51,355 nucleotides of DNA from a virus (lineage: Duplodnaviria > Caudoviricetes), in IMG/VR virus record IMGVR_UViG_3300037755_000354, positions 1-51,355 of that record, one strand, 5' to 3'. The translations under genes and the position numbers were made by a program. The notes under the pieces were generated by a model that saw only the letters and a program-made list of their open reading frames with translations, was not told the origin of the DNA and made no database searches. Positions 22,511 through 35,390 of this stretch are shown here, one piece after another; the stretch's first letter is position 1; every line of letters begins with the position of its first letter.

Positions 22511-22909
22511 ATGGCAACCAGAGGAGCAAAACCAAAATCGGCGCATTTGCGGATAATCGACAGCACCCACCGAACCAATCGGCACGGCGATCGCGACGAG
22601 GCCAAGAAAGTTGCCGAGACCGCCACGCAGCAGTTTGGCGCGCTGACCCGTCCGAAGCATTTGAAGCGCGAGGCCTTGGCTGCATGGAAGAAGTACATCG
22701 AGCCAGCGTCCTGGCTGGACGGCAGCCGTGAACCAGCGGCGATTGCGTTCTGCGAGCTTTGGCAGGAATTCATGGACGGGCCGCGAGTTTTCGCGGCGTC
22801 GAAGCATGGCCAGATGCGCGCCTATATGAGCGAGCTTGGCCTGACTGACGAACGGAACCGTCTGGACAAGGACGACGACGAGAAGCGTGACGAGTTCTTC
22901 GACGATTGA
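22511..22909 (+). CDS. terS: Terminase small subunit
   Basis: RGAKPKSAHLR...ELGLT..RNR; precedes terL. Confidence 0.8.
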   Translation: MATRGAKPKSAHLRIIDSTHRTNRHGDRDEAKKVAETATQQFGALTRPKHLKREALAAWKKYIEPASWLDGSREPAAIAFCELWQEFMDGPRVFAASKHGQMRAYMSELGLTDERNRLDKDDDEKRDEFFDD

Positions 22910-24755
22910 TCGCGCAACGGCGTATGCCGAGGCGGTGGTCAGCGGAAGCATTGTTGCCGGACCGCATGTTCGGAATGCATGCCGTCGTCATCTGGACGAT
23001 TTGGAACGCGGTCATGAGCGCGGCCTCGCATATGACGAGGCAATGGCGGCAAAGACCATTCGATTTTTCGAAACCAAGCTAAGGCTCTCGGAAGGCCAGT
23101 TCGAAGGCAAGCCGTTCAAGAGTGACCCGGCGCAGGATTTTATCATTGGGTCCCTATTCGGCTGGAAAAAGCATGACGGGGCGCAGCGATACGAAGCGCG
23201 GCGATTCCGGCGGGCCTACATTGAGCAGGGCAAGGGCAACGGGAAGTCACCGCTGGCAGGCGGCGTCGGTCTTTATGGCCTCATGGCTGATGGTGAGGCC
23301 GGCGCTGAAATCTATTCGGCGGGCGCGACGAAAGAGCAGGCCGGTATTCTGTTCCGCGATGCCGTCAAAATGGTCGACAAGTCGCCTGATCTCGACAAGC
23401 GGCTGAAGCGCAGCGGATCGCCGGGCAAGGAATACAATCTCGCATACTTGGCGAAAGGTTCGTTCTTCCGGCCGGTTTCGAGGGAAACCAAAAAGACTGG
23501 CTCCGGGCCCAGGCCGCATTTCGCATTGGTCGACGAACTGCATGAACACGCGGATGGCGGCATTATCGAGACGCTGGAGCGTGGCTTTAAATTTCGTCGT
23601 CAACCGCTGCTCTTGATGATCACCAATTCGGGGAGTGACAGGAACTCGGCCTGTTGGGCAGAGCATGAGCACGCAGTGAGGGTCGCGTCAGGCAATCGTG
23701 ATGCCAAAGACGATGAGGCGTCATACCTCGGTGAGCCGCTGGACGATTCCACGTTTTCATATGTCTGCGGGCTCGATCCTGGCGATGATCCACTGGAGGA
23801 TCCTTCGTGCTGGGTGAAGGCGAACCCGCTTCTAGGGGTAACGATTACAGAGGAATATCTGGCGGGCGTCGTCAAGCAGGCCAGCGACATCCCTTCGAAG
23901 CTGAACAACATTCTCAGGCTTCATTTCTGCGTCTGGACAGATGCGGAAACGGCATGGATGACGCGGGCGGCATTAGAGCCGTGCATCAAGGAATTCGACG
24001 TCACGGCGCATCACGGCAAGTCAATTTGGCTGAGCTGCGATCTATCCCAAAACAAGGACATTACCGCGCTCGGCGCTGTCGTGAAGACAGGCGAGATTGA
24101 GGTCGAGGCCGAGCGCGACGGCAAGATTCAGAAGGTCATGAAGCCGACCTATGACGCCTGGGTCGAGGCGTGGACGCCGGGCGACACCATTAAGGCGCGG
24201 GAACTGACGGACAAGCAGCCCTATACGGTGTGGGTGAAACAGGGGCACCTGCACGCACCAAAGGGCGCGAGCATTCGCTTTGACCACGTCGCACAAGCCG
24301 TCGCGGAATACGCGCACGACTTCGACGTGAAGTGCCTTGCTTACGACCGCTATGCCTTTCGCCGCGGTTTCGAGCCGGAGTGCACCAAGCTCGGCATCGA
24401 TGTCGAGTTTGTCGAGCATCCGCAGGGCGGTACCAAGAAGGGCAAGCCAAACGAGGCGATGATTGCAGCGGCAAAGACTGCGAAGCGTGAGCCGGAAGGC
24501 TTGTGGATGCCTGGTTCGGTGCGCGAGCTGGAAGACGCCATTGCTGAAGGGCGCATCAGGATCAGGCTCAATCCGGTCGTGATCTCGGCGATGATGTCGG
24601 CCGTGACCGACGAGGATCGCTGGGGCAATCGCTGGCTGGCGAAAGAGCGGGCCGTGAACAAGATCGACTGCGCGGTGGCGCTGGCAATGGCTTTCGGCGC
24701 GGCGTGTTCATATGAAGGCGCGCCAGCCAAGACTTTCCAGATGATATTTATCTGA
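22887..24755 (+). CDS. terL: Terminase large subunit
   Basis: GKGNGKS, VDELHEH, KANP.LG, YDRY, KIDCAVALAMA. Confidence 0.95.
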   Translation: MTSSSTIDRATAYAEAVVSGSIVAGPHVRNACRRHLDDLERGHERGLAYDEAMAAKTIRFFETKLRLSEGQFEGKPFKSDPAQDFIIGSLFGWKKHDGAQRYEARRFRRAYIEQGKGNGKSPLAGGVGLYGLMADGEAGAEIYSAGATKEQAGILFRDAVKMVDKSPDLDKRLKRSGSPGKEYNLAYLAKGSFFRPVSRETKKTGSGPRPHFALVDELHEHADGGIIETLERGFKFRRQPLLLMITNSGSDRNSACWAEHEHAVRVASGNRDAKDDEASYLGEPLDDSTFSYVCGLDPGDDPLEDPSCWVKANPLLGVTITEEYLAGVVKQASDIPSKLNNILRLHFCVWTDAETAWMTRAALEPCIKEFDVTAHHGKSIWLSCDLSQNKDITALGAVVKTGEIEVEAERDGKIQKVMKPTYDAWVEAWTPGDTIKARELTDKQPYTVWVKQGHLHAPKGASIRFDHVAQAVAEYAHDFDVKCLAYDRYAFRRGFEPECTKLGIDVEFVEHPQGGTKKGKPNEAMIAAAKTAKREPEGLWMPGSVRELEDAIAEGRIRIRLNPVVISAMMSAVTDEDRWGNRWLAKERAVNKIDCAVALAMAFGAACSYEGAPAKTFQMIFI

Positions 24756-24766
24756 AGGAGCTCGTT

Positions 24767-26776
24767 ATGGAGCGGATGTATTCGGTTCTTCATGTGAAGG
24801 CCGTAGATGAAGAAAGGCGGCAGATCATAGGTGTGGCAACAACGCCGAGCCCTGATCGCGTTGGCGATATCGTCGAGCCGCTTGGCGTGAAATTCAAGAA
24901 CCCCTTGCCCCTGCTTTGGCAGCATCGAAGCAGTGAACCTGTCGGGTCGGTGAAATTCGACAAACCGACAAAGGACGGGATCACCTTCACCGCGAAGCTC
25001 CCCAACATCGAACGGCCTGGCAACCTCAAGGAGCGGATCGACGAGGCCTGGGAGAGCGTCAAGCACAAGCTTGTCACTGGCGTGTCGATCGGGTTCCGCG
25101 CCATCGAGCATGCCATGATGGAGGACGGCGGTATTCATTTTTTGAAAACCGAAGTCCTCGAGCTTTCCCTGGTGACGATCCCTGCACAGCAGGATGCGAC
25201 GATCCAGGCGATTAAATCCATCGATTCAGCGTTGCTGGCCGCGGCTGGCCGAAGCGACGCACACCGGACCGCTGAAGAGCGGACGTCCCTCGTATCGGGA
25301 ACCATTGTGAAATCCATTCCAAAGGGAAACCCGAGAATGACAAAGAAGACGATTTCGGAGCAGATCTCCGATTTTGAGGCCACGCGGCAGGCGAAAGCTG
25401 CGCGCATGGTCGAGATCATGGAAGATAGCGGCGCGAAAGGCGAAACGCTGGATGCCGAGCAGACGGAAGAGTATGACGGCCTTGCCGATGAGGTGAAGTC
25501 GATCGATGCCCACCTGAAGCGCTTGCGTGATCTGGAAAAGCAGAGCCTGAACACGGCCAAGGCCATCGACGGCAGCGATGCCGCGAGGGGCGCCGCCTCT
25601 CGGTCGAATGCAGTTCGCGTTTCGGTGCGCGGGCAGCGTCTTGAGCCTGGCATTGCGTTCACGCGCATTGCCAAGGTGAAGGCTCTGGCCAAGCTCGACA
25701 GTGATAGCGTTCGCGAAGTAGCCCGCGATCTCTATGGTGAAGACTCTCCGGTTTACGGCCACTTCGTCAAGGATGCGACCGGCGCCGCCAACACGACGAG
25801 TTCATCGTGGGCTGGCTCGCTCGTCGGTGATGAGACGTCGGCATTTGCCGATTTCGTCGAGTACCTTCGACCGATGACGATCCTTGGCAAGTTCGGCACG
25901 AATGGCGTTCCGAGCCTGCGGCGCGTGCCGTTCCGGACCGCGCTTATCGGTCAGGACTCCGGAGGCGAAGGTTATTGGGTCGGAGAGGGTGCGGCTAAGC
26001 CGTTGACCAAATTCGACTTCTCCCGCCGGACGCTTGATCCGTTGAAGGTTGCGAATATCGCGGTGGCAACGATGGAGCTGCTGCGCAATTCCAGCCCGTC
26101 TGCGGAAATGATCCTGCGTGATCAGCTCGCTGCAGCCTTGCGGGCGCGCATGGACACCGACTTCATCGATCCGACGAAAGCGGCATCCGCCGGCGTATCT
26201 CCGGCGTCGATCACGAATGGCGTTGTGGCCCTTGATTCCAGCGGCACGGATGCCGATGCAGTTCGCCAGGATGTCCAGAATCTGTTCAACGCGTTTATCG
26301 CCGCGAATAACGCGCCGACAAGCGGCGTATGGATCATGAAAGCGACGACGGCTTTGACGCTTTCGCTAATGATGAATGCGCTTGGCCAGCCCGAGTTCAC
26401 TGGCATCAACATGAACGGCGGAACGTTCTTTGGCCTGCCGGTGATCACGTCGGAGTTTGTCCCGGTCGAGCATACCTCGCCGACGGACAGCAATTACGTG
26501 ATCCTTGTGAACGCTTCGGACATCTACTTCGCGGATGACGGTGGCGTTTCCGTCGATATGTCTCAGGAAGCATCGCTGGAGATGTCATCCAATCCTGCGC
26601 ACGCCTCGTCCGGGATCAACTCCCCGGCAAGTTCGCAGGGTGCTTCGCTGGTCTCGCTCTGGCAGACCAACAGCGTCGGCTTCCGCGCAGAGCGGACACT
26701 GAACTGGCTGCGCCGCCGAGATACGTCGGTTCAGGTGCTTGGTGAGGTGCGCTGGTCTCTGGCTGCCGCAGCTTAG
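24767..26776 (+). CDS. Prohead protease fused to HK97-fold major capsid protein
   Basis: PLLWQH, GVSIGF, ELSLVTIPA protease motifs; delta-like coiled coil; WVGEGAAKP; SLWQTNSVGFRAER. Confidence 0.92.
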   Translation: MERMYSVLHVKAVDEERRQIIGVATTPSPDRVGDIVEPLGVKFKNPLPLLWQHRSSEPVGSVKFDKPTKDGITFTAKLPNIERPGNLKERIDEAWESVKHKLVTGVSIGFRAIEHAMMEDGGIHFLKTEVLELSLVTIPAQQDATIQAIKSIDSALLAAAGRSDAHRTAEERTSLVSGTIVKSIPKGNPRMTKKTISEQISDFEATRQAKAARMVEIMEDSGAKGETLDAEQTEEYDGLADEVKSIDAHLKRLRDLEKQSLNTAKAIDGSDAARGAASRSNAVRVSVRGQRLEPGIAFTRIAKVKALAKLDSDSVREVARDLYGEDSPVYGHFVKDATGAANTTSSSWAGSLVGDETSAFADFVEYLRPMTILGKFGTNGVPSLRRVPFRTALIGQDSGGEGYWVGEGAAKPLTKFDFSRRTLDPLKVANIAVATMELLRNSSPSAEMILRDQLAAALRARMDTDFIDPTKAASAGVSPASITNGVVALDSSGTDADAVRQDVQNLFNAFIAANNAPTSGVWIMKATTALTLSLMMNALGQPEFTGINMNGGTFFGLPVITSEFVPVEHTSPTDSNYVILVNASDIYFADDGGVSVDMSQEASLEMSSNPAHASSGINSPASSQGASLVSLWQTNSVGFRAERTLNWLRRRDTSVQVLGEVRWSLAAAA

Positions 26777-26799: not shown

Positions 26800-26835
26800 A
26801 TGGGCTGCCACTCACGGGTGGTGGCCCATCTTTTT
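26800..26835 (+). terminator. Intrinsic terminator after the capsid gene
   Basis: ATGGGC...GCCCAT stem followed by a T-tract. Confidence 0.6.
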
Positions 26836-26845
26836 GGAGGCCAAC

Positions 26846-27223
26846 ATGAAGAAAATGGTCGCAACGAAGTCGATGACTTATAGGACGCGCCGGCTTCGTG
26901 CTGGCGATGAGTTTGAAGCGAACCGCCGCGATGCGCGTGTCCTGACGGCGATCGGCAAGGCAAAGGTCGCTGCTGAGCCAGTGAAGCGCCGTCAGGCGCG
27001 CGCTGCCTCTGCGCCGCCAATTGAGACGCCTGGCGAGCCGGAACCTGCACCACAGCAGCAGTCGGTGGCAGAACAACCAGCCGAAACTGACGATCTTGGC
27101 CTACTCACCAATGCAGAGCTTCGCCAGATTGCGGCGCGCGAAAGCATCGATGTGTCTGCTTGCAAGGTGAAAGCCGATCTGATTGACGCCATCAATGCGG
27201 CGCGCGAAGAGGATGACGTTTAG
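26846..27223 (+). CDS. Hypothetical head-module protein with a C-terminal HeH/Rho-N-like domain
   Basis: LTNAELRQIAA...KADLIDAI. Confidence 0.65.
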   Translation: MKKMVATKSMTYRTRRLRAGDEFEANRRDARVLTAIGKAKVAAEPVKRRQARAASAPPIETPGEPEPAPQQQSVAEQPAETDDLGLLTNAELRQIAARESIDVSACKVKADLIDAINAAREEDDV

Positions 27224-28641
27224 TGCGATTTCTCGGCTTTGAGATCACGCGAGCGAAAGAGCTTTCCGGCGTCAGCGGCGGTGCGCGAAACACATGGTTT
27301 CCGCTGATCCGCGAAAGCTTTACCGGCGCGTGGCAGAAGAACCATGCGATAAAGGTCGAGGATGCGCTCTCCTATTGGCCGGTGTTTCGCTGCGTCTCGC
27401 TGATCTCGTCGGACATTGCAAAGCTCGGACTTGATCTCGTCGAGGAGGCATCGGACGGCGTGTGGCAGCCGACGCACGTTCCGGCCTACTCGCCGGTCCT
27501 GCAGAAGCCGAACCCTTTCCAGACGCGCATCCAGTTTGTCGAAAGCTGGCTTCAGTCGAAGCTCACGCGCGGAAATACCTACGTCCTGAAACAGCGCGAC
27601 AACCGCGGCGTCGTGACATCGCTTTATGTGCTCGACCCGACGCTCGTCAAGCCGCTCGTGTCCGAGCTCGGCGAGGTCTTTTACGAACTCAATGCCGATT
27701 ACCTGTCACGCTTGACGGCAAGCAATATCGTCGTGCCGGCATCGGAGATCATCCACGACCGCTGGAATGCGCTGTATCATCCCTTGTGCGGTCTCTCACC
27801 GATCTATGCCGCGGCGACGAAGGCGCTGACCGGACTGCGTATTCAGGATACCAGCAGCAAGTTCTTTGAGCGCGGTGCGCTGCCGAGCGGCATTCTGACG
27901 GCGCCAGGCGCGATCGCTGACGACACGGCGAAACGCTTGAAGGAACATTGGGAAGAGAACTATTCCGGCAAGAACGCCGGGCGCGTGGCCGTGCTCGGCG
28001 ACGGTCTCAAGTTTGAGCGCATGTCCGTGACGGCGGAAGATTCCCAGCTCATCGAGCAGTTGAAATGGACGGCCGAGGCCATCTGCGGCGCGTTTGGCGT
28101 GCCGGTTTACATGGTCATGGGCACCGCACCCAACTACAACAACGTGCAATCTCTGACGCAGCAATATTACAGCCAGTGCCTTCAGATCCTGATCGAAAGC
28201 ATCGAGATTCTGCTTGATGAGGGGCTTTCGATCACGCAGTCCAAATCCGGCAAGCGGCGGGGCACGCGCTTCGATCTCGACGATCTGCTTCGCATGGATA
28301 CGATGACGCAGGTGACGGCGATCAAGGATGCAGTTGGCGCCGGCGTGATGGCTCCGAACGAAGGGCGCCGCAAGCTGAACCTCAAGCCAGTCGCGGGTGG
28401 TGAGAGTCCATATTTGCAGCAGCAGAATTATTCACTTGCCGCGCTTGCCGAGCGGGACAGCGATAAGCCGTTTGAAAAGCCAGATCCTGCGCCGCCACCA
28501 GAGCCAGAGCCCGACGATCCCGATGAACCGGACGGGGGAGACGAGGAGCTTGATGAGGAAGAGCGCGGCGTGCTCGCCAACGATCTCCTGTGGAAGCGTC
28601 TGAGCGGCGGCGCAAACCATGGTTCGCAGCCGTTTGCATAA
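27223..28641 (+). CDS. Portal protein (HK97 family)
   Basis: KPNPFQT, GNTY, EIIH, GLSPI, PSGIL, PNEGR. Confidence 0.93.
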   Translation: MRFLGFEITRAKELSGVSGGARNTWFPLIRESFTGAWQKNHAIKVEDALSYWPVFRCVSLISSDIAKLGLDLVEEASDGVWQPTHVPAYSPVLQKPNPFQTRIQFVESWLQSKLTRGNTYVLKQRDNRGVVTSLYVLDPTLVKPLVSELGEVFYELNADYLSRLTASNIVVPASEIIHDRWNALYHPLCGLSPIYAAATKALTGLRIQDTSSKFFERGALPSGILTAPGAIADDTAKRLKEHWEENYSGKNAGRVAVLGDGLKFERMSVTAEDSQLIEQLKWTAEAICGAFGVPVYMVMGTAPNYNNVQSLTQQYYSQCLQILIESIEILLDEGLSITQSKSGKRRGTRFDLDDLLRMDTMTQVTAIKDAVGAGVMAPNEGRRKLNLKPVAGGESPYLQQQNYSLAALAERDSDKPFEKPDPAPPPEPEPDDPDEPDGGDEELDEEERGVLANDLLWKRLSGGANHGSQPFA

Positions 28642-28654
28642 GGGGCAATCGAGA

Positions 28655-29653
28655 ATGAACAGGCACGATATCGAAAGCGTGATCGAAGCCGTCGCGCCAA
28701 CGATTACACGGTATGTCGAGGCGGCACTTGCACCGATGATGGCGCGCGTTGCTCAGCTTGAGGCGCGCCAGCTTGAGCATGGCAAGGATGGCGCGGGCGT
28801 GTCTGATGCCGTGATCGATCGCGATGGCGTGCTGATCCTGACATTGACGGACGGCCGGTCGTTGAAGCCAGGTGTGGTTGCCGGCAAGGATGGCGAGCCG
28901 GGGAAATATCCCGATCTCGAAGCGATTGCCGCGATGGTTCGCAAGGAAATCGAGCTGCATCTGCCTGACGCCGTTGCTGAGATCCCTGTGCAAAAAGGAG
29001 AGCCTGGCGAACCCGGCGCGCCTGGTCGTGACGCTGATCCCGAGTTCATCGTCAAGGCCGTCCATAACGAGGTTGCAAGCCAGCTTCCTGAAGCGGTGGC
29101 CGCAATCCCATTGCAGAAGGGTGATCCCGGCGCGCCTGGCAAGGACGCCGACATGGCGGCAATCGAGGCGATGATTGCGAGGGCGGTGCAGTCTATCGCT
29201 CGCGTCAAGGGCGATCCCGGTCAGGACGGCGTCAGCATTTCCGGTGTCTCGATCAACAGAGACGGGGATTTGTCCGTCACCATGTCTGATGGCAAAACGA
29301 AGGAGCTTGGGCGCGTGGTCGGGCGCGACGGCATCGGCTTCGATGATATGGAGGAAGTTCTTTCCGATGATGGCCGGCTGATCATTCGGCGCTACAAGCG
29401 CGGCGCGGAAACGAAAGAGTTTCATCACCGCGTCCCGATGATCATCGATCGCGGCGTCTATAGCGAAGAGCGCGAGTACGCCACAGGCGATGCCGTGACC
29501 TGGGGCGGCTCGCTCTGGATTGCGCAGGCGCCGACAGCGCAGAAGCCGGGGCAGTCCGACACATGGCGGCTTGCCGTGAAGCGCGGCCGTGACGGGAAAG
29601 ACGCGCCGGCGGTTGATCCGAAGCCGAAGACGAAGAGCGGAGCCGCGCAATGA
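28655..29653 (+). CDS. Head-associated protein with collagen-like G-x-y repeats
   Basis: Repeated LP.AVA.IP.QKG.PG.PG.DAD; C-terminal GDAVTWGGSLW...WRLAVKRGRDGKD. Confidence 0.75.
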   Translation: MNRHDIESVIEAVAPTITRYVEAALAPMMARVAQLEARQLEHGKDGAGVSDAVIDRDGVLILTLTDGRSLKPGVVAGKDGEPGKYPDLEAIAAMVRKEIELHLPDAVAEIPVQKGEPGEPGAPGRDADPEFIVKAVHNEVASQLPEAVAAIPLQKGDPGAPGKDADMAAIEAMIARAVQSIARVKGDPGQDGVSISGVSINRDGDLSVTMSDGKTKELGRVVGRDGIGFDDMEEVLSDDGRLIIRRYKRGAETKEFHHRVPMIIDRGVYSEEREYATGDAVTWGGSLWIAQAPTAQKPGQSDTWRLAVKRGRDGKDAPAVDPKPKTKSGAAQ

Positions 29654-30252
29654 ACGGCGTTCAGGTCGTGACCGCGCCAGCGCTTCCTGCGGTAACGCTC
29701 GCTGAAGCCAAGACGCACCTTGCGGTCGATACCGACGATTTTGATGCAATGATCGAGATGCTTGTTGCAGCGGCGACCGATCACGCCGAGTCCTTCATGG
29801 GCCGCGCGCTGGTCGAGCGAACGCTGGATTATTTTGTTGATGCATTCCCCGGTAATGGCGGCGCAATCCGCCTGCCGTTCCCGCCGCTCATTGCTGTGAC
29901 GGGCGTGTTCTACACCGATGCCGATGATGTCGAGCAGGAATTCACTGGCTTCGAGGCTGACGCCGCCAGCAAGCCGGCGCGGCTGTTCCTGACGTCGCCG
30001 AACTCGTGGCCGACGCCGCGCGACAGTGCCAATGCCGTTCGCGTGCGTTACCGGGCGGGTCACTCTGCCGTCAGCGGTTCGCCGCCAGCGCTTGACGGCA
30101 CGATACCGTCGGACCTGAAGGCGGCGATATTGCTGATGACCGGCACGCTGTTCGAGCTCCGCGAGACCGTCACGGAGATGTCCGCGAATATGGTGCCGTG
30201 GGGAGCTGACCAGCTTCTCCGCCGCCACAGGATCGAGCTTTCCGCCGCGTAA
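29650..30252 (+). CDS. Head-tail connector (gp6-like adaptor)
   Basis: VTLAEAKTHL, AESFMGRAL, IP.DLKAAILL. Confidence 0.85.
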   Translation: MNGVQVVTAPALPAVTLAEAKTHLAVDTDDFDAMIEMLVAAATDHAESFMGRALVERTLDYFVDAFPGNGGAIRLPFPPLIAVTGVFYTDADDVEQEFTGFEADAASKPARLFLTSPNSWPTPRDSANAVRVRYRAGHSAVSGSPPALDGTIPSDLKAAILLMTGTLFELRETVTEMSANMVPWGADQLLRRHRIELSAA

Positions 30253-30866
30253 TGCTGTTGGAGCGTGTCGAGCCGCGTTGGCAGGGCGAATGCTGCATCG
30301 TCGCAGCGCCTGGACCATCACTGACGCCGGAGATTGCCGAAGCCTGCCGCGGCGATCGCGTGATCTCGGTGAACGATGCCTATCGCCGGCTGCCGTTTGC
30401 CGATGTGCTTTATGCCTGCGATGCGAAGTGGTGGAATGTTCATGGTGATTGCAAAGGCTTTGCCGGTGAGAAGTGGTCCAGTCATGATGGACAGGGCAAC
30501 AAGAAGCTGAAAGAGGCCGAACTCTACAGCCTGAAGCTTGTGTGCGGTGAAAGCCGCAAGGGCTTTTCGCTCGATCCGGGGCGGATCCATTATGGCGGGA
30601 ATGGCGGCTTCCAGGCTGTCAATCTGGCGATCCTGTTTGGCGCGCGCCGGATTGTGCTCGTTGGCTTCGATATGCACGGTAGCCATTTCTTCGGGCCGCA
30701 TCCAGGCCCGCTGCGCAACACGCGGAACTTTGAGAAGTTTATCAATAGCTTCGGAGAAGCGGCAAGGATGCTGCCTGCACATATCAGGATTGTGAATGCA
30801 ACGCCGGGTTCGGCGTTGAAGTGTTTCCCGTTCGTGGACCTGGTTCCGACGCGGGAGGCCGCATGA
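30252..30866 (+). CDS. Maf/DUF115-like (sialyltransferase-type fold) putative glycosyltransferase
   Basis: IVAAPGPSL, ISVND, GNGGFQAVNLAILFGARRIVLVGFD, IVNAT. Confidence 0.65.
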   Translation: MLLERVEPRWQGECCIVAAPGPSLTPEIAEACRGDRVISVNDAYRRLPFADVLYACDAKWWNVHGDCKGFAGEKWSSHDGQGNKKLKEAELYSLKLVCGESRKGFSLDPGRIHYGGNGGFQAVNLAILFGARRIVLVGFDMHGSHFFGPHPGPLRNTRNFEKFINSFGEAARMLPAHIRIVNATPGSALKCFPFVDLVPTREAA

Positions 30867-31435
30867 GGCGTGATCGGCGGCTGGGGTTTTCAGGAAAGAG
30901 ATGGCCGCAACTTGTCAGCGAGCTCGACGCTTTTGTCGATCTACTCGCTGCCGAAGGGGTGCGGTCTTACTTGGAAATAGGGGCGCTGTATGGTGATACG
31001 TTTCATCATATCGGCATGTCGCTTCCAAAGGGTGCGCATCTTGTGGCTGCAGATTTACCGGGATGGAAGCGGGGGCAGCCCATCGGACGCCATGGCGGCA
31101 GCGGTGAATATCTGAAGGCAGCGGCGCGCGATCTCAAGAAGCGGGGGCGGGAAGCGCACATTATTTTTGGCGACAGTCACGACGCCGAGACCATTGCCGA
31201 GGTCAGCAAGCACGCGCCGTTTGATGCCATCATGATCGATGGGGATCACACGCCGAAGGGCGCAATGGCGGATTGGCAAGACTATGGCCAGATGGGGCGC
31301 ATCGTCGCGTTCCATGACATCGCCGGCATCCCTGATGTGACGAAGGTGTGGGAGACGGTTCGAAAAGGCAACCGGTGGAAGGAGATCATTTCCCCTGATC
31401 GCCAGGGCGGGATTGGGGTCATATGGAACGAATAA
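30863..31435 (+). CDS. Class I SAM methyltransferase (Methyltransf_24-like)
   Basis: YLEIGALYG, GDSH, FDAIMIDGDH, VAFHDI; ATGA overlap. Confidence 0.8.
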   Translation: MRRDRRLGFSGKRWPQLVSELDAFVDLLAAEGVRSYLEIGALYGDTFHHIGMSLPKGAHLVAADLPGWKRGQPIGRHGGSGEYLKAAARDLKKRGREAHIIFGDSHDAETIAEVSKHAPFDAIMIDGDHTPKGAMADWQDYGQMGRIVAFHDIAGIPDVTKVWETVRKGNRWKEIISPDRQGGIGVIWNE

Positions 31436-32151
31436 CGGTTGCGAGCTTCTACTGGCGCGACAACGACGACCGGTGCCAGAACGTTTATCAATACGGCAAT
31501 GACGATGTTGTGCTTCTCAGGAATCAGTTTCAGCGGCATCTGACGCGGCCTCATGAATTCGTTTGCGTTACGAATCGGCCCAGAGAGATTGACCCAAGCA
31601 TTCGCACCATCCCGCTTGACGAACGTTTGCGGGTTCGCGGCGGGCGGTATTTCAAGCTTGCAGTCTTCGGGAAGGACGCGGCGGAATTCTTCGGCGAGCG
31701 CATTTTGACGGCCGATCTGGATTCGGTCCTCACCAGAAACGCAGATCATCTCGTCGATCGCGAGGAAGACCTTGTGCTTTGGCGCAATCCCAATTGGGGG
31801 CTGAAGCGGCGCGCTTACTACAACACGAGCATCATGCTTGTTCGCGCTGGCACGCGCACTGAATTCTATGACCGGTTCGACTCTCAGCGCAGCCATGACG
31901 AAGCAGCGCGCGTAACCGGCTGGGGCGGCACGGACCAACGCTTCATCTCATGGATCGCCGGACGCAATGAGGCGCATTGGACGGCCGAAGACGGCATCTA
32001 TGGTGCCGGCAGGCTCGGCGATTACTGCCCCGGCATGGCGACGACTGTTCTGCCTGAAAATGCCTGTTTCGTGACATTCCCCGGTCGACGTCATCCGAAG
32101 ATGGCGAAGACGCAAGAGAAGCACCCATGGATTGTGAGCCACCGCCGATGA
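31423..32151 (+). CDS. GT-A fold glycosyltransferase (GT8-like)
   Basis: FVCVT, KLAVF, DLDSV (DxD), YNTSIM, DQRFIS, FPG..HP. Confidence 0.8.
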   Translation: MERITVASFYWRDNDDRCQNVYQYGNDDVVLLRNQFQRHLTRPHEFVCVTNRPREIDPSIRTIPLDERLRVRGGRYFKLAVFGKDAAEFFGERILTADLDSVLTRNADHLVDREEDLVLWRNPNWGLKRRAYYNTSIMLVRAGTRTEFYDRFDSQRSHDEAARVTGWGGTDQRFISWIAGRNEAHWTAEDGIYGAGRLGDYCPGMATTVLPENACFVTFPGRRHPKMAKTQEKHPWIVSHRR

Positions 32152-32738
32152 TTTCAGAACGTTCAAAAAAGATGCTTACCCATTACGTCGGATCTGTAGC
32201 CAGGGGCTATGACGCGCGGCGATCTAGTCAGGAAAAATGGAAGCGCGAGCAGGAAATTCTTTCCGGTATTATCGCGGCGCTACCCGCGGGATCGACAGCG
32301 CTTGATATCCCCTGCGGGACCGGCCGGCTGTTTCGGTTCTTCGCAGAACGCGGCGTGACGGTCACGGCGCTCGATATCAGCGATGACATGATCAGGGAAG
32401 CGAAGGCGAAGCACAAAAGCAGCGGCGGCGAGATCACGATCGGTCACGGCGATATCTTCAAGATCGACTTGCCGGATATGTCAGTCGATACTGCGTTCGC
32501 CATCCGGATCATGAACCGAATCGGCGGTGCTGATGTGCCGCGTGCGCTGGGGGAATTGCAGCGCGTGGCCAAGAGCCAGATTGTATTTAATCTTCGTGTC
32601 GACAGTGGGAACAGCCGTTATCGGCACCCGGTTGCAATGTCCGTCGTTCATGGATCGCTTGAGCCCGGGTGGCAGATCACGGCAGACCAGGAAATCCACG
32701 AGCCGGACTTCCGGATGATTACCCTGTCTCGGGATTGA
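32148..32738 (+). CDS. Class I SAM methyltransferase
   Basis: LDIPCGTGR, ALDISDDM, GDIF, ALGELQRV. Confidence 0.85.
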   Translation: MISERSKKMLTHYVGSVARGYDARRSSQEKWKREQEILSGIIAALPAGSTALDIPCGTGRLFRFFAERGVTVTALDISDDMIREAKAKHKSSGGEITIGHGDIFKIDLPDMSVDTAFAIRIMNRIGGADVPRALGELQRVAKSQIVFNLRVDSGNSRYRHPVAMSVVHGSLEPGWQITADQEIHEPDFRMITLSRD

Positions 32739-32741
32739 TCC

Positions 32742-33323
32742 ATGAATTGGCTGGACGTATGCGGCCCGCCCGCGGTCGGCAAGTCTACCTTGCTCGACGA
32801 TCTGTGGCCACCGCGCGGCATTCCGTACGATGGCGGCGGTTATCCTGATGAGTGGCTGGAGTTTCTGAGCGTCGCTTGGCGATTACTCGACGAAGTGACT
32901 GATCATCCGAGCCACCATAAATGCGCATCGATGATGAAGCGATCGTTTCAGAAGATGGCGACGGTTCGTCGGCGGAAAGATCGGCGCACATACATCCAGA
33001 CCGGGTTTGCCCAGCGCGGGCTCGGGCTCGGCTGGCGTCACAAGGATGCTGAAGCGGTCGCGGCGTTTTACCAGGTCATGCCCGTGTCGCTCGGCGTGGT
33101 GATTCTCAAAGCGCCGCTGGATGTTATCGAGCACAGGAACAGGATGCGCGACAAGCCGGACCGGTCGCACATGGTTCCCGGCATGATCCGGCCGCTCGAG
33201 GTCGCGGAAGACGTCCTGCGCGCGCGCGGCGTTCCGGTTGCCGTTCTGGATATGACCAGGCCAATAGAGCGGAACCGTGAAAAGCTTGCGGCTTTCGCCA
33301 AGGGCGCCGGAGGAACGAAGTGA
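32742..33323 (+). CDS. P-loop kinase (NMP-kinase-like)
   Basis: N-terminal GPPAVGKST; R-x-x-x-R lid-like segment. Confidence 0.65.
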   Translation: MNWLDVCGPPAVGKSTLLDDLWPPRGIPYDGGGYPDEWLEFLSVAWRLLDEVTDHPSHHKCASMMKRSFQKMATVRRRKDRRTYIQTGFAQRGLGLGWRHKDAEAVAAFYQVMPVSLGVVILKAPLDVIEHRNRMRDKPDRSHMVPGMIRPLEVAEDVLRARGVPVAVLDMTRPIERNREKLAAFAKGAGGTK

Positions 33324-33832
33324 ACCCGCTGGGGCTCGGCGAGCGGTCTGTGCAGCTTTTGTTGAGTGCTTCGCCCGATCAGCCGATCGATCCGCATCAT
33401 TTCGTGACGCCGGCGCGGCTCGATATCGTCGTCAAGCTGATGTTTTTCGAGTGCGTCAAGAATGCCCACATCTATCGCCGTCACATCGAAGGCCGCTCCG
33501 GCGGCCGCGAAAAGCGAAGTTGGAAAATGTCGGTGCAGGATTACATCACGGCAGCCGGCGATCTGATGAGGTCCATGCGCGCAAACGGCTTCGATCCGAG
33601 TGAGCCGGTTGAGCTTGGATGCAATCTCGGCCTGCGCGGCGGCGCGCATCGCATTGCCTGCGCCCTGGCTCTGGACATCACAATACGTGTCAGGATCGCA
33701 GACAAGCCCGGCAACGCCGCTTTATGGGATGAGGCGTACATGCGCAGGGCCGGCATGACTGATCAGGATCTGGCGCCGGCTCTGGCGCGATTTAAAAGGC
33801 TTCAGGATGCCGCGCGCCTGCGTCTTGGTTAA
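33320..33832 (+). CDS. ParB/Srx-like domain protein
   Basis: SMRANGFDP..PV...GGAHRIACALAL. Confidence 0.6.
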   Translation: MNPLGLGERSVQLLLSASPDQPIDPHHFVTPARLDIVVKLMFFECVKNAHIYRRHIEGRSGGREKRSWKMSVQDYITAAGDLMRSMRANGFDPSEPVELGCNLGLRGGAHRIACALALDITIRVRIADKPGNAALWDEAYMRRAGMTDQDLAPALARFKRLQDAARLRLG

Positions 33833-34613
33833 TCCACGCATGTCGCACCAGCATTCATGGGCTGAGGCGTTCGTGGCCGGGTTGCGCCGCCATGGGTGGC
33901 GGGCGGATCTGAGCCACAAGCTTGTCACGTCCGATCTTGTGGCGATGTGGTCAACCCGCAGGCAGGACGTGATCAAGCAGGCGCGAAGCGAGGTGCGGGA
34001 GATCGTTACTGCCGAGCGCGGCTATATGGGCGATCGCAAGCATTATTGCAGCGTGAGCTTCGGCGGCGAACTCAATGGGCGTGCGGAGTTCCGGGGGGCA
34101 TTCGGTGACACGTCACGCTTCGAAAGATTGTTCGCGCATCTGATGCAGCCGTGGAATCGCAAGCCGGACGGCCATGCCCTGATCATGGGGCAGGTCGATG
34201 GCGACATGAGCACGCGCGGCGTGAATTTGACGCGCTGGTATCGCGAAACGCGCCAAGCTCTGGAAGCGCGCGGCTGGAAGGTCAAGTTCCGCCCACATCC
34301 CTTGGCCGCTGGCGGCGAAGCGTTCGCGGCATATCGGCAAAGGCAGCAGGCGCATCAACTCGATCTGGCGGCCGACTTTGAAACGGCGGGCGTGGTTGTC
34401 ACCTATAATTCAAACTCCGGTGTGGATGCCGTTCTCGCCGGCAAGCCGGTCATCGCAATGGATGAGGGTGCAATGGCCTGGCCTGTGGCCGGACACCAGG
34501 TTGATGAGATCATCACGCCGGATCGGACGGCTTGGGCGCATCGGCTTGCCTGGTGCCAATGGACAAAGGCCGAGATGGCCAGCGGCGAATGTATTGAGGC
34601 GATCGGGTTATGA
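33807..34613 (+). CDS. KpsS/KpsC-like (beta-Kdo transferase-type) glycosyltransferase
   Basis: GQVDGD (QxxxD), FRPHP (HP motif), VVTYNSNSGVDAVLAGKPV. Confidence 0.7.
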   Translation: MPRACVLVNPRMSHQHSWAEAFVAGLRRHGWRADLSHKLVTSDLVAMWSTRRQDVIKQARSEVREIVTAERGYMGDRKHYCSVSFGGELNGRAEFRGAFGDTSRFERLFAHLMQPWNRKPDGHALIMGQVDGDMSTRGVNLTRWYRETRQALEARGWKVKFRPHPLAAGGEAFAAYRQRQQAHQLDLAADFETAGVVVTYNSNSGVDAVLAGKPVIAMDEGAMAWPVAGHQVDEIITPDRTAWAHRLAWCQWTKAEMASGECIEAIGL

Positions 34614-34870
34614 GAGAAAAAGGTACAGGAATTTTGCCGATCACTGCGGAATTGCTTGAGCAAGTGGCGCTTCGCTCATTTTTGCCTCGGTCATACAACG
34701 TGATCGGATCTGCAAAATCAAAGCTCCCCGGAATGGTTCTGCTTATCGTTGAATCCGATGACATCGCAGGCCACGGTCATTTTCTGACCTGTGAGACCCA
34801 GGATGCAGGAAGCACTCGAACGATTCGCGTAGTGCTTGAACGTCCGAGTCAAGAGACGGCCGAGCTGTGA
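34610..34870 (+). CDS. Hypothetical protein
   Basis: ATGA-coupled to the upstream gene. Confidence 0.55.
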   Translation: MREKGTGILPITAELLEQVALRSFLPRSYNVIGSAKSKLPGMVLLIVESDDIAGHGHFLTCETQDAGSTRTIRVVLERPSQETAEL

Positions 34871-35037
34871 AATCCCATGTTTTTAAATGTCCGAAATGCG
34901 GCTTCGTGCAGGTCTATTCCAGCATGTGCGCAGAGACGGGGCAGGTCGGCAGCAATGCGAAGGAAAGGGCGGACAAGCCTTGCCCGAATGATGGCTCTGA
35001 GCTGCTGCCGGTTTTTGACCAGAAAGAGTTGCAATGA
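34867..35037 (+). CDS. 56-aa Zn-ribbon-like protein (not in the ORF track)
   Basis: MKSHVFKCPKCGF...KPCPNDG...; GTGA and ATGA overlaps with both neighbours. Confidence 0.65.
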   Translation: MKSHVFKCPKCGFVQVYSSMCAETGQVGSNAKERADKPCPNDGSELLPVFDQKELQ

Positions 35038-35390
35038 GCTCGGTCGGCAGCCTCAACCGGCGCGTAACATTCCAGCGCTCGACGGTGAGCTACAACGATT
35101 TTAACGAGCCTGTCGAGACGTGGGCAACGCTAGCGGAAGTGTGGGTGAATCGGCGCGACGCGAGCGCTGGCGAAAGCTACCGGGCGCAGGAGGTAGGCGG
35201 GCAGCTCTCGATCCGTTTCACGATCCGCTACAGCTCAGACGTGGCGACGATCAACCCGCGCGACCGCGTTCTCTACAATGGCGGCGTCTACAACATCACC
35301 GGCGTTCGTGAGACGAAGCGCAATCGCTGGCTTGAGGTGGATGCGGTCATTCAGCCGGACGTTGCGGCGGAGGAAGACGGTTCACCTTGA
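35034..35390 (+). CDS. Head closure protein (SPP1 gp16-like)
   Basis: GSLNRRVTFQ, FTIRY, DRVLY.G.VYNI. Confidence 0.85.
   Translation: MSSVGSLNRRVTFQRSTVSYNDFNEPVETWATLAEVWVNRRDASAGESYRAQEVGGQLSIRFTIRYSSDVATINPRDRVLYNGGVYNITGVRETKRNRWLEVDAVIQPDVAAEEDGSP

What the first reader, a model, noticed from the sequence alone, without database searches (positions are those of the whole stretch)
30252..34613. Sugar-modification cassette embedded in the head-tail operon: candidate virion glycosylation pathway
Seen: seven tightly packed genes sit between the head-tail adaptor and the head-closure gene, which are normally adjacent. They encode a Maf/DUF115-like protein (GPS...G.D), a SAM MTase, a GT-A transferase (DxD), a second SAM MTase, a P-loop kinase, a ParB/Srx-like protein and a KpsS/KpsC-like protein (QxxxD and HP motifs). 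Established: Maf proteins O-glycosylate flagellin Ser/Thr with CMP-nonulosonic acids; KpsS/KpsC transfer beta-Kdo from CMP-Kdo; capsid glycosylation by late-operon GTs is known in actinobacteriophages. Inference: the phage builds a methylated, ulosonic-acid-containing glycan on its virion proteins from host nucleotide sugars. Late, structural placement argues against DNA modification but does not exclude it.
Basis: partly seen in the sequence, partly recalled or inferred. Interest (0 to 1): 0.85.

Follow-up and report, generated by a model that had tools for sequence, protein, structure and literature searches.

The report
Phage neck-operon sugar-coating gene cassette
A temperate phage carries seven soluble sugar-transferring and sugar-tailoring enzyme genes wedged between its head-tail joining genes, one version of a widespread unstudied phage cassette that most likely puts an acidic, methylated sugar chain on the virus particle, though the target is unproven.

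Summary
Observation confirmed. Seven co-directional genes (30252-34613) lie between the head-tail adaptor and head-closure genes. From portal to Neck1 every gene junction overlaps or has a gap of 3 nt or less.

- g1 is a bare Maf-type catalytic core (VIA Z 16.1 to Maf 5mu5).
- g7 is a retaining beta-Kdo-transferase look-alike (Z 14.3 KpsC, 13.3 WbbB, 11.5 KrkA) with invariant QxxxD and HP motifs.
- g2 and g4 are SAM methyltransferases. g3 is weakly GT8-like, with a DxD motif. g5 is a P-loop kinase-like protein.
- g6 is only tentatively ParB/Srx-like. It is fused to g5 in a relative, and to capsule-synthesis, glycosyltransferase and TPR domains in others.

The g1+g7 pair recurs in the late operon of 60 of 80 uncultured phage contigs, in Hyphomicrobiales prophages and in cultured Caulobacter phages. 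The full seven-gene set occurs on five contigs, and close relatives lack the cassette. The phage encodes no CMP-sugar synthetase.

Virion glycosylation is the best reading (about 0.55) but is inferred from gene position alone. This scan has already noted such cassettes in at least 12 other genomes. New here are the kinase plus g6 pair and the evidence pointing to CMP-Kdo as donor. My nine paper searches found no paper describing it.

The parts
29650..30252 (+). head-tail adaptor (gp6-like); upstream border of the cassette
   Evidence: PF05135 3.1e-9; phrog_442 4.4e-27. Its stop overlaps the g1 start.
30252..30866 (+). g1: Maf/DUF115 (MptE-like, GT42-like) catalytic core, 204 aa; candidate CMP-ulosonic-acid transferase
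   Evidence: phrog_4603 2.6e-37. PF01973 reaches only 19 bits against a cut-off of 34.6. AF2 pLDDT 91.3. Foldseek top hit is Maf 5mu5, E 6.5e-6. VIA Z 16.1 to Maf residues 255-513, 11.6 to MptE HPPK, 10.9 to CstII. 1635 homologues, and 27 of the 120 listed carry PF01973.
30821..31435 (+). g2: class I SAM methyltransferase of the cation-dependent O-methyltransferase type. The likely true start is the ATG at 30863, which overlaps the g1 stop.
   Evidence: PF13578 6.8e-7. Family profile A8 against PDB: best hits are O-methyltransferases (3dul 2.3e-5, caffeoyl-CoA OMTs). Homologue alignments begin at residues 18-30. Junction shown.
31423..32151 (+). g3: GT-A/GT8-like glycosyltransferase candidate with a DxD motif (D98-L99-D100)
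   Evidence: phrog_1962 glycosyltransferase 9.4e-10. No Pfam hit. Profile A3 against PDB: GT8 3tzt E 0.056 with DxD aligned, glycogenin about 0.9. Atlas neighbours are viral 'glycosyltransferase' clusters and GT8/Nucleotid_trans clusters.
32127..32738 (+). g4: class I SAM methyltransferase (Methyltransf_25/11 type)
   Evidence: PF13649 9.5e-17, PF08241 4.2e-15. Among the best PDB relatives are the dTDP-amino-sugar N,N-dimethyltransferases 3px2, 6m83 and 3pfg, E 2e-6 to 6e-6.
32742..33323 (+). g5: P-loop kinase-like protein (Walker A); substrate unknown
   Evidence: PF13671 AAA_33 at 27.5 bits against a cut-off of 27. AAA_18 in 7 of 8 and AAA_33 in 6 of 8 family members. Weak PDB hits to adenylate kinase and PSTK. 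Fused to a g6 domain in P0277.
33320..33832 (+). g6: uncharacterised domain with an invariant G-A-H-R motif, tentatively ParB/Srx-like; partner of g5
   Evidence: No Pfam, NCBIfam or PDB hit. hhalign against a ParB_N alignment: P 1.2e-4, probability 55%, 47 columns. 1826 relatives at E<=1e-3, and 77 of the top 151 are longer than 230 aa. Fusion partners among 40 long relatives: TPR 7, Capsule_synth 3, Glyco_trans_1_2 2, FkbM methyltransferase 1.
33807..34613 (+). g7: retaining beta-Kdo-transferase-like enzyme (modified GT-B fold) with QxxxD (Q129...D133) and HP (H164-P165) motifs
   Evidence: AF2 pLDDT 92.3. The 12 best Foldseek rows are all KpsC or KrkA, with WbbB from rank 18, E about 1e-6 to 4e-5. 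VIA Z 14.3 KpsC, 13.3 WbbB, 11.5 KrkA, next fold 8.7. Profile against PDB: KpsC E 0.012 and WbbB 0.021, with both motifs aligned. Motif roles taken from PMC12887879. PF05159 reaches only 13.8 bits against a cut-off of 20.
34610..34870 (+). 86-aa ORF of unknown function between g7 and head closure; not part of the conserved cassette
   Evidence: No family hit. GC3 0.48 against 0.65-0.76 for its neighbours. Absent in L010 and L012, where g7 abuts Hc1.
34867..35037 (+). 56-aa Cys-rich (zinc-ribbon-like) ORF
   Evidence: Only sub-threshold Zn-ribbon hits; no PHROG hit.
35034..35390 (+). head closure protein Hc1; downstream border
   Evidence: PF05521 1.3e-21; phrog_25 1.1e-21.

Best explanation
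This is a late-expressed, soluble glycan-building cassette. It most likely decorates a virion protein in the host cytoplasm during assembly.

Shown:
- The seven genes are translationally chained to the portal, adaptor and neck genes.
- g1 has the fold of the Maf flagellin-glycosyltransferase catalytic domain.
- g7 has the fold and both catalytic motifs of retaining beta-Kdo transferases. In those enzymes the Asp of QxxxD is the nucleophile and HP binds CMP.
- g1 and g7 form a conserved core pair across many phages. Accessory genes come and go around that pair.

Inferred:
- The donor is host CMP-Kdo, because the phage encodes no CMP-sugar synthetase and CMP-Kdo is the one such donor that every Gram-negative host makes.
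- g1 and g7 lay down one or two acidic sugars on Ser/Thr of an exposed structural protein.
- g3 adds a hexose from an NDP-sugar.
- g2 (O-methyltransferase type) and g4 methylate the chain.
- The g5 kinase and its partner g6 add a phosphate-based substituent.

The coat would be an accessory trait, since cassette-free relatives exist. It could mask the particle or change its surface chemistry.
For: Position:
- 13 of 13 junctions from portal to Neck1 overlap or have gaps of 3 nt or less, and no + strand promoter- or terminator-like site lies between 26830 and 37090.
- Among 80 distinct viral contigs with a g7 relative, g1 is present on 60. Among the 53 with more than 4 kb upstream of g7, g1 is present on 46.
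- 0 of 80 contigs have any hit on the opposite strand to the structural genes.
- The adaptor gene lies between g1 and g7 in 13 of the 21 contigs where both g1 and the adaptor were found. The enzymes are therefore interleaved with neck genes, not a single insert.
- The same order is seen in 10 of 22 bacterial genome loci, which are prophages of Filomicrobium, Bosea, Bauldia and others. In cultured Caulobacter phage CcrBL9 the pair sits right after the tail genes.

Enzymes.

Solubility: none of the seven has a hydrophobic 19-residue window above 1.69, and no flippase or ligase is present.

Donor supply:
- No CTP_transf_3 gene in the complete phage genome.
- 5 of 5 host genomes have one. NeuB is present in only 3 of 5.

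Accessory nature: relatives L121 and L123 have the adaptor and Hc1 about 410-430 nt apart with no g1 or g7.

Link of g6 to glycan pathways: its domain is fused to Capsule_synth, Glyco_trans_1_2 and FkbM domains.

A different gene fits the usual place for lysogenic conversion: a GT2 gene next to the integrase.

Precedent: glycans on the capsid and tail-tube subunits of mycobacteriophages, as summarised in PMC12619734 and PMC12363180 (passages read).
Against: - No result here touches the acceptor. The virion target is inferred from gene position and analogy only.
- All characterised relatives of g7 act on lipid-linked glycans, not proteins (PMC12887879 passages).
- g1 lacks the flanking domains of Maf. 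It aligns only to residues 255-513 of the 632-residue chain, so nothing in it suggests how a protein acceptor would be recognised.
- g1's fold class also includes pyrophosphokinases (MptE Z 11.6) and SteA (Z 10.4).
- g3 and g6 assignments are weak.
- In my tblastn survey only 17 of 42 contigs with room on both sides had recognisable structural genes on both sides. That is a lower bound, because only this window's proteins served as probes.
- The remotest genome loci (L098-L105) show no phage genes around the g7 relative.
Confidence: 0.55

Rival explanations
1. The enzymes act on a host envelope glycolipid or glycan. Candidates are the LPS core or O-antigen terminus, a phosphatidylglycerol-anchored poly-Kdo primer, or a capsule. 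The effect would be to mask receptors, exclude other phages, or keep progeny from sticking to debris.
For: - Every characterised relative of g7 (KpsC, WbbB, KrkA) works on lipid-linked glycans.
- The GT42 relatives of g1 (CstII, Cst-I) sialylate lipooligosaccharide (entry titles).
- g6-domain relatives are fused to capsule-synthesis domains.
- Phage D3, which carries a g1 homologue, is a serotype-converting phage (recalled, not from a call).
Against: - The genes are chained to late structural genes with no promoter-like site of their own, so they should be silent in the lysogen.
- Expression minutes before lysis leaves little time for export.
- There are no membrane segments, flippase or ligase.
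- The genes are interleaved with neck genes across many lineages.
- A separate GT2 gene sits at the classical conversion site beside the integrase.
Confidence: 0.2
2. The cassette modifies phage DNA, as a glycosyl, methyl or phospho hypermodification, just before or during packaging.
For: - The cassette holds a P-loop kinase next to a possibly ParB-like protein (a fold that often binds DNA or nucleotides), plus transferases and two methyltransferases.
- Phage glycosyltransferases that hypermodify DNA are known (cited in PMC12619734).
Against: - The complete genome has no thymidylate-synthase-like hydroxymethylase.
- The replication module has its own N6/N4 DNA methylase.
- g1 and g7 belong to fold classes that use CMP-ulosonic acids, and none of the solved relatives that the searches listed is a DNA-modifying enzyme.
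- The g6 domain is fused to capsule and glycosyltransferase domains. No nucleic-acid enzyme domain appeared among the 40 long relatives scanned.
- g2 resembles small-molecule O-methyltransferases.
- The core pair recurs without g5 and g6 in most contigs.
Confidence: 0.07
3. The products act on a non-virion target inside the cell. This could be a host protein such as flagellin or pilin (blocking rival phages), or a soluble metabolite. In that case the late-operon position reflects only timing.
For: - g1's nearest solved relative is a flagellin glycosyltransferase.
- The fold class of g1 also includes pyrophosphokinases that act on small molecules (MptE, thiamine pyrophosphokinase).
- The cassette is dispensable in relatives.
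Against: - g1 lacks the flanking domains of Maf.
- The repeated interleaving with adaptor and head-closure genes, in lineages with different capsid gene layouts, is hard to explain by timing alone.
Confidence: 0.13

Closest known systems
Retaining beta-Kdo glycosyltransferases: KpsC/KpsS (GT107), WbbB N-terminal module (GT99), KrkA (GT140)
   Same: g7 shares their modified GT-B fold (Z 14.3, 13.3 and 11.5; next fold class 8.7). It also has the QxxxD and HP motifs, which are invariant in 44 family members and align to those of KpsC and WbbB. PMC12887879 assigns these motifs to the Asp nucleophile, Kdo-carboxylate binding and CMP binding.
   Different: Sequence similarity is marginal (profile E 0.012; PF05159 below its cut-off). 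g7 is shorter, at 268 aa against about 320-390. It is phage-encoded and sits in a head-tail operon, not a capsule or O-antigen locus. The known enzymes act on lipid-linked glycans. g7 may represent a further lineage of this enzyme class.
Maf (motility accessory factor) flagellin glycosyltransferases / DUF115 (PF01973) / GT42 sialyltransferases
   Same: g1 matches the central catalytic domain of Magnetospirillum Maf (Z 16.1, 183 aligned residues, rmsd 3.1). It also matches CstII and Cst-I (Z 10-11). It has the N-terminal G-P-S motif.
   Different: g1 is 204 aa and covers only residues 255-513 of the 632-residue Maf chain. It scores below the Pfam cut-off (19 against 34.6 bits). Its donor and acceptor are unknown.
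Virion glycosylation of mycobacteriophages (Che8, Corndog, Myrna; Freeman et al. 2023, known here only through citing papers)
   Same: Phage-encoded glycosyltransferases modify virion proteins. Glycans were reported on capsid and tail-tube subunits (passages in PMC12619734 and PMC12363180).
   Different: The hosts are Gram-positive-type actinobacteria. I could not read which enzyme families are involved (PMC10527164 is not held). No Mycobacterium phage is among the 10 organism names that the tally names for the 71 phage records matching g1; 3 further names were not shown. In those phages glycosylation is demonstrated; here it is inferred.
Uncharacterised late-operon genes of cultured phages: Pseudomonas D3 orf7 (plus orf12, orf13), P1 PmgP, Caulobacter phage CcrBL9 gp527-gp522, 'Tetraselmis viridis virus S20' TVGG_00041-00049
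   Same: D3 orf7 and P1 PmgP are g1 homologues at 30-34% identity. In D3 the gene lies between the major head protein and the adaptor. S20 has a nine-gene cassette between its capsid-side genes and head closure, with two g1-like genes and one g3-like gene. CcrBL9 has g1 and g7 homologues side by side, followed by a methyltransferase, right after the tail genes.
   Different: D3 and S20 lack a g7 homologue. None of the regions I inspected (D3, S20, CcrBL9) shows a g5-g6 pair. None has a published function that my searches could find.

Membership tests
Retaining beta-Kdo transferases (GT99/GT107/GT140 class) - g7 | Modified GT-B fold with a reduced N-terminal Rossmann domain | tested here: met
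   AF2 model pLDDT 92.3. The top 15 VIA entries are all KpsC, WbbB or KrkA, Z 11.3-14.3 over 221-232 aligned residues. The next fold scores Z 8.7. Foldseek E about 1e-6.
Retaining beta-Kdo transferases - g7 | QXXXD motif (Asp nucleophile, Gln binds the Kdo carboxylate) | tested here: met
   Q129 and D133 are invariant in 44 sequences. They align to the Q..D of KpsC 6mgc in the HMM alignment. The motif's role is taken from PMC12887879 passages.
Retaining beta-Kdo transferases - g7 | HP motif (CMP binding) in the C-terminal domain | tested here: met
   H164-P165 are invariant and align to the HP of KpsC and WbbB.
Retaining beta-Kdo transferases - g7 | Sequence membership of Pfam Capsule_synth (PF05159) | tested here: not met
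   13.8 bits, E 0.042, against a cut-off of 20. Only 1 of the 120 listed homologues carries PF05159.
Retaining beta-Kdo transferases - g7 | Transfer of Kdo from CMP-beta-Kdo through a covalent Asp adduct | not testable with these tools
   Needs the D133C auto-labelling assay and mass spectrometry.
Maf / DUF115 (PF01973) - g1 | Fold of the Maf central catalytic domain (GT42-like) | tested here: met
   VIA Z 16.1, rmsd 3.1, 183 aligned residues against 5mu5 residues 255-513. The next best is 11.6 (MptE HPPK).
Maf / DUF115 (PF01973) - g1 | Score above the Pfam gathering threshold | tested here: not met
   19 bits against 34.6. 27 of the 120 listed homologues do carry PF01973.
Maf flagellin glycosyltransferases - g1 | N- and C-terminal domains flanking the catalytic core (full-length Maf architecture) | tested here: not met
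   g1 is 204 aa and aligns only to the central 255-513 of the 632-residue chain.
GT8 / GT-A glycosyltransferases - g3 | DxD metal- and nucleotide-binding motif | tested here: met
   D98-L99-D100 are nearly invariant in 21 sequences. They align to the D-P-D of the GT8 structure 3tzt.
GT8 / GT-A glycosyltransferases - g3 | Significant sequence or fold match to the family | tested here: inconclusive
   No Pfam hit for the window protein. 1 of 21 members hits PF01501, at 0.061. PDB profile E 0.056. PHROG glycosyltransferase family 9.4e-10. Atlas neighbours include GT8 and Nucleotid_trans clusters.
ParB/Srx fold - g6 | Core helix-strand-GxxR-helix unit | tested here: inconclusive
   hhalign of the g6 family (A4) against 9 genomic ParB_N domains (A7): P 1.2e-4, probability 55%, 47 columns centred on the invariant G-A-H-R. 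Pfam and PDB sequence searches found nothing. No fold prediction was possible.
P-loop kinases (AAA_33/AAA_18) - g5 | Walker A motif and a family score above the cut-off | tested here: met
   G13-K14-T16 are invariant. AAA_33 scores 27.5 bits against 27, which is marginal. AAA_18 in 7 of 8 and AAA_33 in 6 of 8 relatives. The substrate is unknown.
Phage virion glycosylation systems (mycobacteriophage type) | Glycosyltransferase genes carried by the phage and expressed with the structural genes | tested here: met
   The genes are chained within the portal-to-neck gene string, and the position recurs on other contigs. Expression itself was not measured.
Phage virion glycosylation systems (mycobacteriophage type) | Glycan demonstrated on capsid or tail proteins | not testable with these tools
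   Needs glycostaining and mass spectrometry of virions.

The most novel reading that the evidence does not exclude
Phages of Gram-negative bacteria (alphaproteobacterial siphophages, Caulobacter giant phages, and in reduced form D3 and P1) widely coat their particles with an LPS-like acidic glycan. They would build it from the host's own CMP-Kdo using a minimal Maf core and a fourth lineage of retaining beta-Kdo transferases. In the extended seven-gene version, a previously unrecognised enzyme pair (a P-loop kinase plus a ParB/Srx-like domain, which also occurs in cellular capsule-type multidomain enzymes) would add a phosphate-linked substituent.
Probability: 0.4. Interest if true: 0.8.

Novelty: new variant of a known kind. 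Interest (0 to 1): 0.62.

Why it matters
Virion glycosylation has been shown only for mycobacteriophages, where it affects antibody recognition (as summarised in PMC12363180). If this cassette does the same in phages of Gram-negative bacteria, three things would follow.
- It would reveal a common, unnoticed layer of phage surface chemistry, relevant to host range, particle stability, environmental adsorption and immune recognition of therapeutic phages.
- It would add a protein-directed, or at least phage-directed, branch to the beta-Kdo transferase class.
- It would give a first functional context to the g6 domain family, which has 1826 relatives at E<=1e-3.

The question can be tested directly in cultured systems: Caulobacter phages CcrBL9 and CcrSC, Pseudomonas phage D3, and prophages of Filomicrobium insigne, Mesorhizobium sp. 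Root552 and Bosea minatitlanensis.

Tried and rejected
What led nowhere:
- DNA-level search of the cassette against 50,697 phage records: no match.
- g1 alone and the g1 family profile against PDB sequences: nothing meaningful. Only the fold search resolved it.
- g6 against Pfam, NCBIfam, PHROGs, PDB sequences and the Atlas: no named relative. The word-index search found only 9 relatives, while the exhaustive profile search found 1826.
- The g5 profile against PDB gave mostly Walker-A-only matches.
- NCBIfam gave nothing for six of the seven proteins.
- Literature searches for phage plus KpsC/Kdo transferase, motility accessory factor plus virion, sialyltransferase plus head-tail, DUF115 plus phage, CcrBL9 plus glycosyl, and ParB Srx plus polysaccharide found no paper on such a cassette. 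These searches cover only the held open-access library.

Considered and rejected:
- A recent moron insertion. GC3 of g1-g7 (0.65-0.72) is close to that of the structural genes (0.70-0.76), and the genes are interleaved with neck genes in other lineages.
- A phage-encoded supply of nucleotide sugar. No CTP_transf_3 gene is present.
- The hmC/hmU DNA glycosylation route. No thymidylate-synthase-like gene is present.

Not done:
- Complex prediction was not used. An enzyme with an unknown acceptor is a poor case for it, and the g5-g6 link already rests on a natural fusion.
- The look-up of sequencing runs and read laying were not used, because expression data would not identify the acceptor.
- Supplementary files were not consulted. 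Freeman et al. 2023 could not be read at all, so statements about it come from citing papers.

Full report
CONTEXT. The window is a complete virus record with direct terminal repeats, 51,355 bp, rated 100% complete. It is a temperate siphovirus-like phage. It has an integrase (3045-4229, minus strand) and an S24 repressor (7885-8679, minus strand). It also has a GT2 glycosyltransferase beside the integrase, a ribonucleotide reductase, an N6/N4 DNA methylase, a helicase and a primase-polymerase. The late operon on the + strand reads as follows:
- terminase large subunit, 22887-24755
- a protease-capsid fusion, 24767-26776
- a 129-aa gene
- portal, 27223-28641
- a 344-aa collagen-like protein
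- head-tail adaptor, 29650-30252
- the seven genes of the finding
- two small ORFs
- head closure, 35034-35390
- Neck1, tail terminator, major tail protein and tape measure.

Its nearest prophage relatives are in Hyphomicrobiales. A Filomicrobium insigne prophage has a terminase 75% identical.

OBSERVATION. From portal to Neck1, 13 of 13 junctions overlap or are separated by 3 nt or less. g2 most likely starts at the ATG at 30863, which overlaps the g1 stop. A simple consensus scan finds no + strand promoter-like or terminator-like site between the hairpin after the capsid gene (26800-26829) and 37092. GC3 of g1-g7 is 0.65-0.72, against 0.70-0.76 for the structural genes. None of the seven has a membrane-like hydrophobic segment; the highest 19-residue Kyte-Doolittle mean is 1.69, inside the g5 P-loop core. 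One is 86 aa with GC3 0.48. The other is a 56-aa Cys-rich ORF. Neither has relatives in the libraries, and both are absent from the closest cassette-bearing contigs, where g7 abuts head closure.

THE TWO CORE ENZYMES.

g7 has at least 842 relatives. An alignment of 44 shows invariant Q129, D133, H164, P165, S202 and N203. Its profile hits only beta-Kdo transferases at the top of the PDB list (KpsC E 0.012, WbbB 0.021). These scores are weak, but the QxxxD and HP motifs are aligned. The AF2 model (pLDDT 92.3) matches KpsC, KrkA and WbbB by Foldseek (E 1e-6 to 4e-5). By VIA-align it gives Z 14.3 (KpsC), 13.3 (WbbB) and 11.5 (KrkA). The next fold class scores 8.7. Passages of PMC12887879 state that these three GT families share negligible sequence similarity but have a common modified GT-B fold. 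According to the same passages, the Asp of QXXXD is the nucleophile, its Gln binds the Kdo carboxylate, and HP binds CMP. g7 meets all of these features but falls below the Pfam Capsule_synth cut-off. It works like, and may be a further lineage of, this enzyme class.

g1 has 1635 relatives, and 27 of the 120 listed carry PF01973. Sequence searches against PDB fail. The model (pLDDT 91.3) gives Z 16.1 to the central domain of the Magnetospirillum Maf glycosyltransferase. That is well above MptE pyrophosphokinase (11.6), CstII and Cst-I sialyltransferases (about 10-11) and SteA (10.4). g1 is a bare catalytic core without Maf's flanking domains.

THE ACCESSORY ENZYMES.
- g2 is a Methyltransf_24 protein. 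Its family profile best matches cation-dependent O-methyltransferases.
- g4 is a Methyltransf_25/11 protein. NDP-amino-sugar N,N-dimethyltransferases are among its best solved relatives.
- g3 has no Pfam hit. It matches a PHROG glycosyltransferase family (9.4e-10) and has a nearly invariant D-L-D. It weakly matches a GT8 structure with the DxD aligned (E 0.056). Its Atlas neighbours are viral glycosyltransferase clusters and GT8/Nucleotid_trans clusters. One 482-aa viral cluster carrying MptE-like matches the Atlas model at TM 0.77, which hints at g3-g1 fusions elsewhere (a lead only).
- g5 has an invariant Walker A motif and just passes AAA_33. AAA_18 or AAA_33 are found in 6-7 of 8 relatives.
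- g6 is the least known. No library names it.

More on g6. An exhaustive profile search finds 1826 relatives at E<=1e-3, and 77 of the 151 best are longer than 230 aa. Among 40 long relatives, the partner domains are TPR (7), Capsule_synth (3, best 1.8e-16), Glyco_trans_1_2 (2), an FkbM methyltransferase (1) and PglD_N (1). One 393-aa relative, P0277, is a g5-g6 fusion: g5 profile E 7e-55 over residues 1-198, and the g6 domain over 235-375. A second relative, P0267, holds the C-terminal part of g5 followed by g6. So g5 and g6 act together, and the g6 domain belongs to glycan biosynthesis. A profile-profile comparison with nine genomic ParB_N domains aligns 47 columns around the invariant G-A-H-R, at P 1.2e-4 and probability 55%.

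SURVEY OF RELATED PHAGES. A pattern scan of IMG/VR with the g7 alignment confirmed 252 relatives, of which 80 loci were returned. Together with seven loci from the first scan, these represent 80 distinct contigs. I dropped L005 because it is the same contig as L017. Using tblastn with this window's proteins (E 1e-5, coverage at least 40%), I found the following:
- g1 is present on 60 of 80 contigs. Among the 53 with more than 4 kb upstream of g7, it is present on 46.
- No contig has a hit on the opposite strand.
- Gene sets among the 53: g1+g7 (21), g1+g2+g7 (10), g1+g3+g7 (7), all seven genes (5: L010, L012, L023, L031, L076), g7 alone (4), other sets (6).
- Two truncated contigs (L011, L020) hold g2-g7.
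- Head closure lies within 1 kb downstream of g7 in 28 of the 67 contigs with room downstream.
- Recognisable structural genes lie on both sides in 17 of the 42 contigs with room on both sides. This is a lower bound, since only this window's proteins were the probes.
- The adaptor lies between g1 and g7 in 13 of the 21 contigs where both g1 and the adaptor were found, after g7 in 6, and before g1 in 2.

The enzymes are therefore woven into the neck genes in lineages with different capsid layouts, both separate protease and capsid genes and the fused form.

A scan with the head-closure protein found relatives that lack the cassette. In L121 and L123 the adaptor and Hc1 lie about 410-430 nt apart, with no g1 or g7 hit in the 1.2-1.9 kb available upstream. 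It also found one relative (L120) with about 7.9 kb between the adaptor and Hc1.

In one-genome-per-species bacterial contigs, 22 loci matched. Ten of them carry g1 as well, and ten show phage structural genes in the same order. Their record titles name Filomicrobium, Hyphomicrobiales, Bosea, Bauldia, Minwuia, Gammaproteobacteria and Phycisphaeraceae, plus one contig labelled Mycobacterium. The remotest eight loci (L098-L105) show no phage genes with these probes.

Among deposited phage genomes:
- g1 homologues occur in 71 records. They include Pseudomonas D3 orf7, which lies between the major head protein and the adaptor, P1 PmgP, and Caulobacter and Brevundimonas giant phages.
- 'Tetraselmis viridis virus S20' has a nine-gene cassette before head closure.
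- g7 homologues occur in 12 records, 11 of them Caulobacter giant phages. In CcrBL9 the g1 and g7 homologues are adjacent, followed by a methyltransferase, directly after the tail genes and before the endolysin.
- D3 and S20 have no g7.

DONOR. The complete phage genome has no CMP-sugar synthetase family gene. Of five host genomes with g1+g7 prophages, 5 have such genes, but only 3 have a NeuB-family nonulosonic-acid synthase. Filomicrobium has a single CTP_transf_3 match and no NeuB (genome completeness is not stated). CMP-Kdo is therefore the only CMP-activated acidic sugar that can be assumed in every host. It is the likeliest donor for g7 and possibly for g1 too.

TARGET. Nothing computed here identifies the acceptor. 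The virion reading is favoured by several points:
- the conserved, interleaved late-operon position;
- the soluble nature of all seven enzymes and the lack of any export function;
- the dispensability of the cassette;
- the separate GT2 gene at the classical lysogenic-conversion site;
- the mycobacteriophage precedent, read only as passages in citing papers.

Against it stand two points: all characterised g7 relatives act on lipid-linked glycans, and g1 lacks the flanking domains that full-length Maf has.

DNA modification is disfavoured for these reasons:
- there is no hydroxymethylase;
- a DNA methylase sits in the replication module;
- the g6 fusion partners are glycan enzymes;
- most contigs carry the core pair without g5 and g6.

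PRIOR NOTES OF THIS SCAN. Look-ups by words and by sequence show that the scan has already reported such head- or neck-embedded glycan cassettes in at least 12 other genomes. Some are built around Kdo-transferase-like and Maf-like enzymes and mention D3, PAJU2 and P1. They reach the same reading, but they are AI notes and not independent evidence. What this window adds:
- the seven-gene version with the g5-g6 pair;
- the natural g5-g6 fusion and the cellular fusion partners of g6;
- the host NeuB/CTP_transf_3 comparison pointing to CMP-Kdo;
- cassette-free relatives;
- the cultured Caulobacter phages as a test bed.

VERDICT. The pathway idea is plausible, and the virion target is unproven. I place 0.55 on virion-protein glycosylation, 0.20 on a host envelope target, 0.07 on DNA and 0.13 on another intracellular target. 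I rate it a new variant of a known kind (phage virion glycosylation): different enzyme families in phages of Gram-negative hosts, widespread, and not described in any paper found by the searches listed.

Noticed in passing
window 1691-2668 (- strand): A GT2 glycosyltransferase (PF00535 2.7e-15) lies next to the integrase, which is the usual place for a lysogenic-conversion gene. It has a sub-threshold hit to TET-associated glycosyltransferase (PF20691, 22.8 against 27.5 bits) and to a PHROG annotated as beta-glucosyl-HMC-alpha-glucosyltransferase (8.5e-4).
   Followed up: partly
window 24767-26776 and 27223-28641: The head maturation protease and major capsid protein are fused in one 669-aa gene (phrog_617 7.5e-161). 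This gene lies before the portal gene, so the order is terminase-capsid-portal. A strong terminator-like hairpin follows at 26800-26829.
   Followed up: partly
window 28619-29653: A 344-aa protein with short collagen-like G-x-y runs and internal repeats lies between the portal and the adaptor (phrog_1289, 2.1e-29). Homologues sit just upstream of g1 in the contigs with the fused capsid gene. It is a possible exposed fibre and a candidate glycan acceptor, but this was not tested.
   Followed up: no
window 34610-34870 and 34867-35037: Two small ORFs lie between g7 and head closure. One is 86 aa with an atypically low GC3 (0.48) and no relatives. The other is a 56-aa Cys-rich, zinc-ribbon-like ORF. 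Both are absent from the closest cassette-bearing contigs.
   Followed up: partly
proteins P0277, P0272, P0276: The g6 domain occurs as a natural fusion with the g5 kinase (P0277, 393 aa). It also occurs inside very long proteins (1631 and 1913 aa). Many relatives of 420-530 aa carry a second conserved C-terminal region that Pfam does not name.
   Followed up: partly
L120:1-9336: A relative whose head-closure protein is 78% identical has about 7.9 kb between the adaptor and head closure. This is a much larger insert, with only a weak partial g7-like hit.
   Followed up: no
L132 (Caulobacter phage CcrBL9, NC_048047.1 119133-123622): A cultured giant phage carries adjacent g1 and g7 homologues, then two hypothetical genes, a methyltransferase and another hypothetical gene. 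The block lies between the tail genes and the endolysin. It is a tractable model for testing the cassette.
   Followed up: partly
L001 (Pseudomonas phage D3, NC_002484.2 7748-9143): D3 has a second pair, orf12 (hypothetical) and orf13 (methyltransferase), between head closure and the gp10-like gene, in addition to the g1 homologue orf7. orf12 does not match the g7, g3, g5 or g6 profiles.
   Followed up: partly
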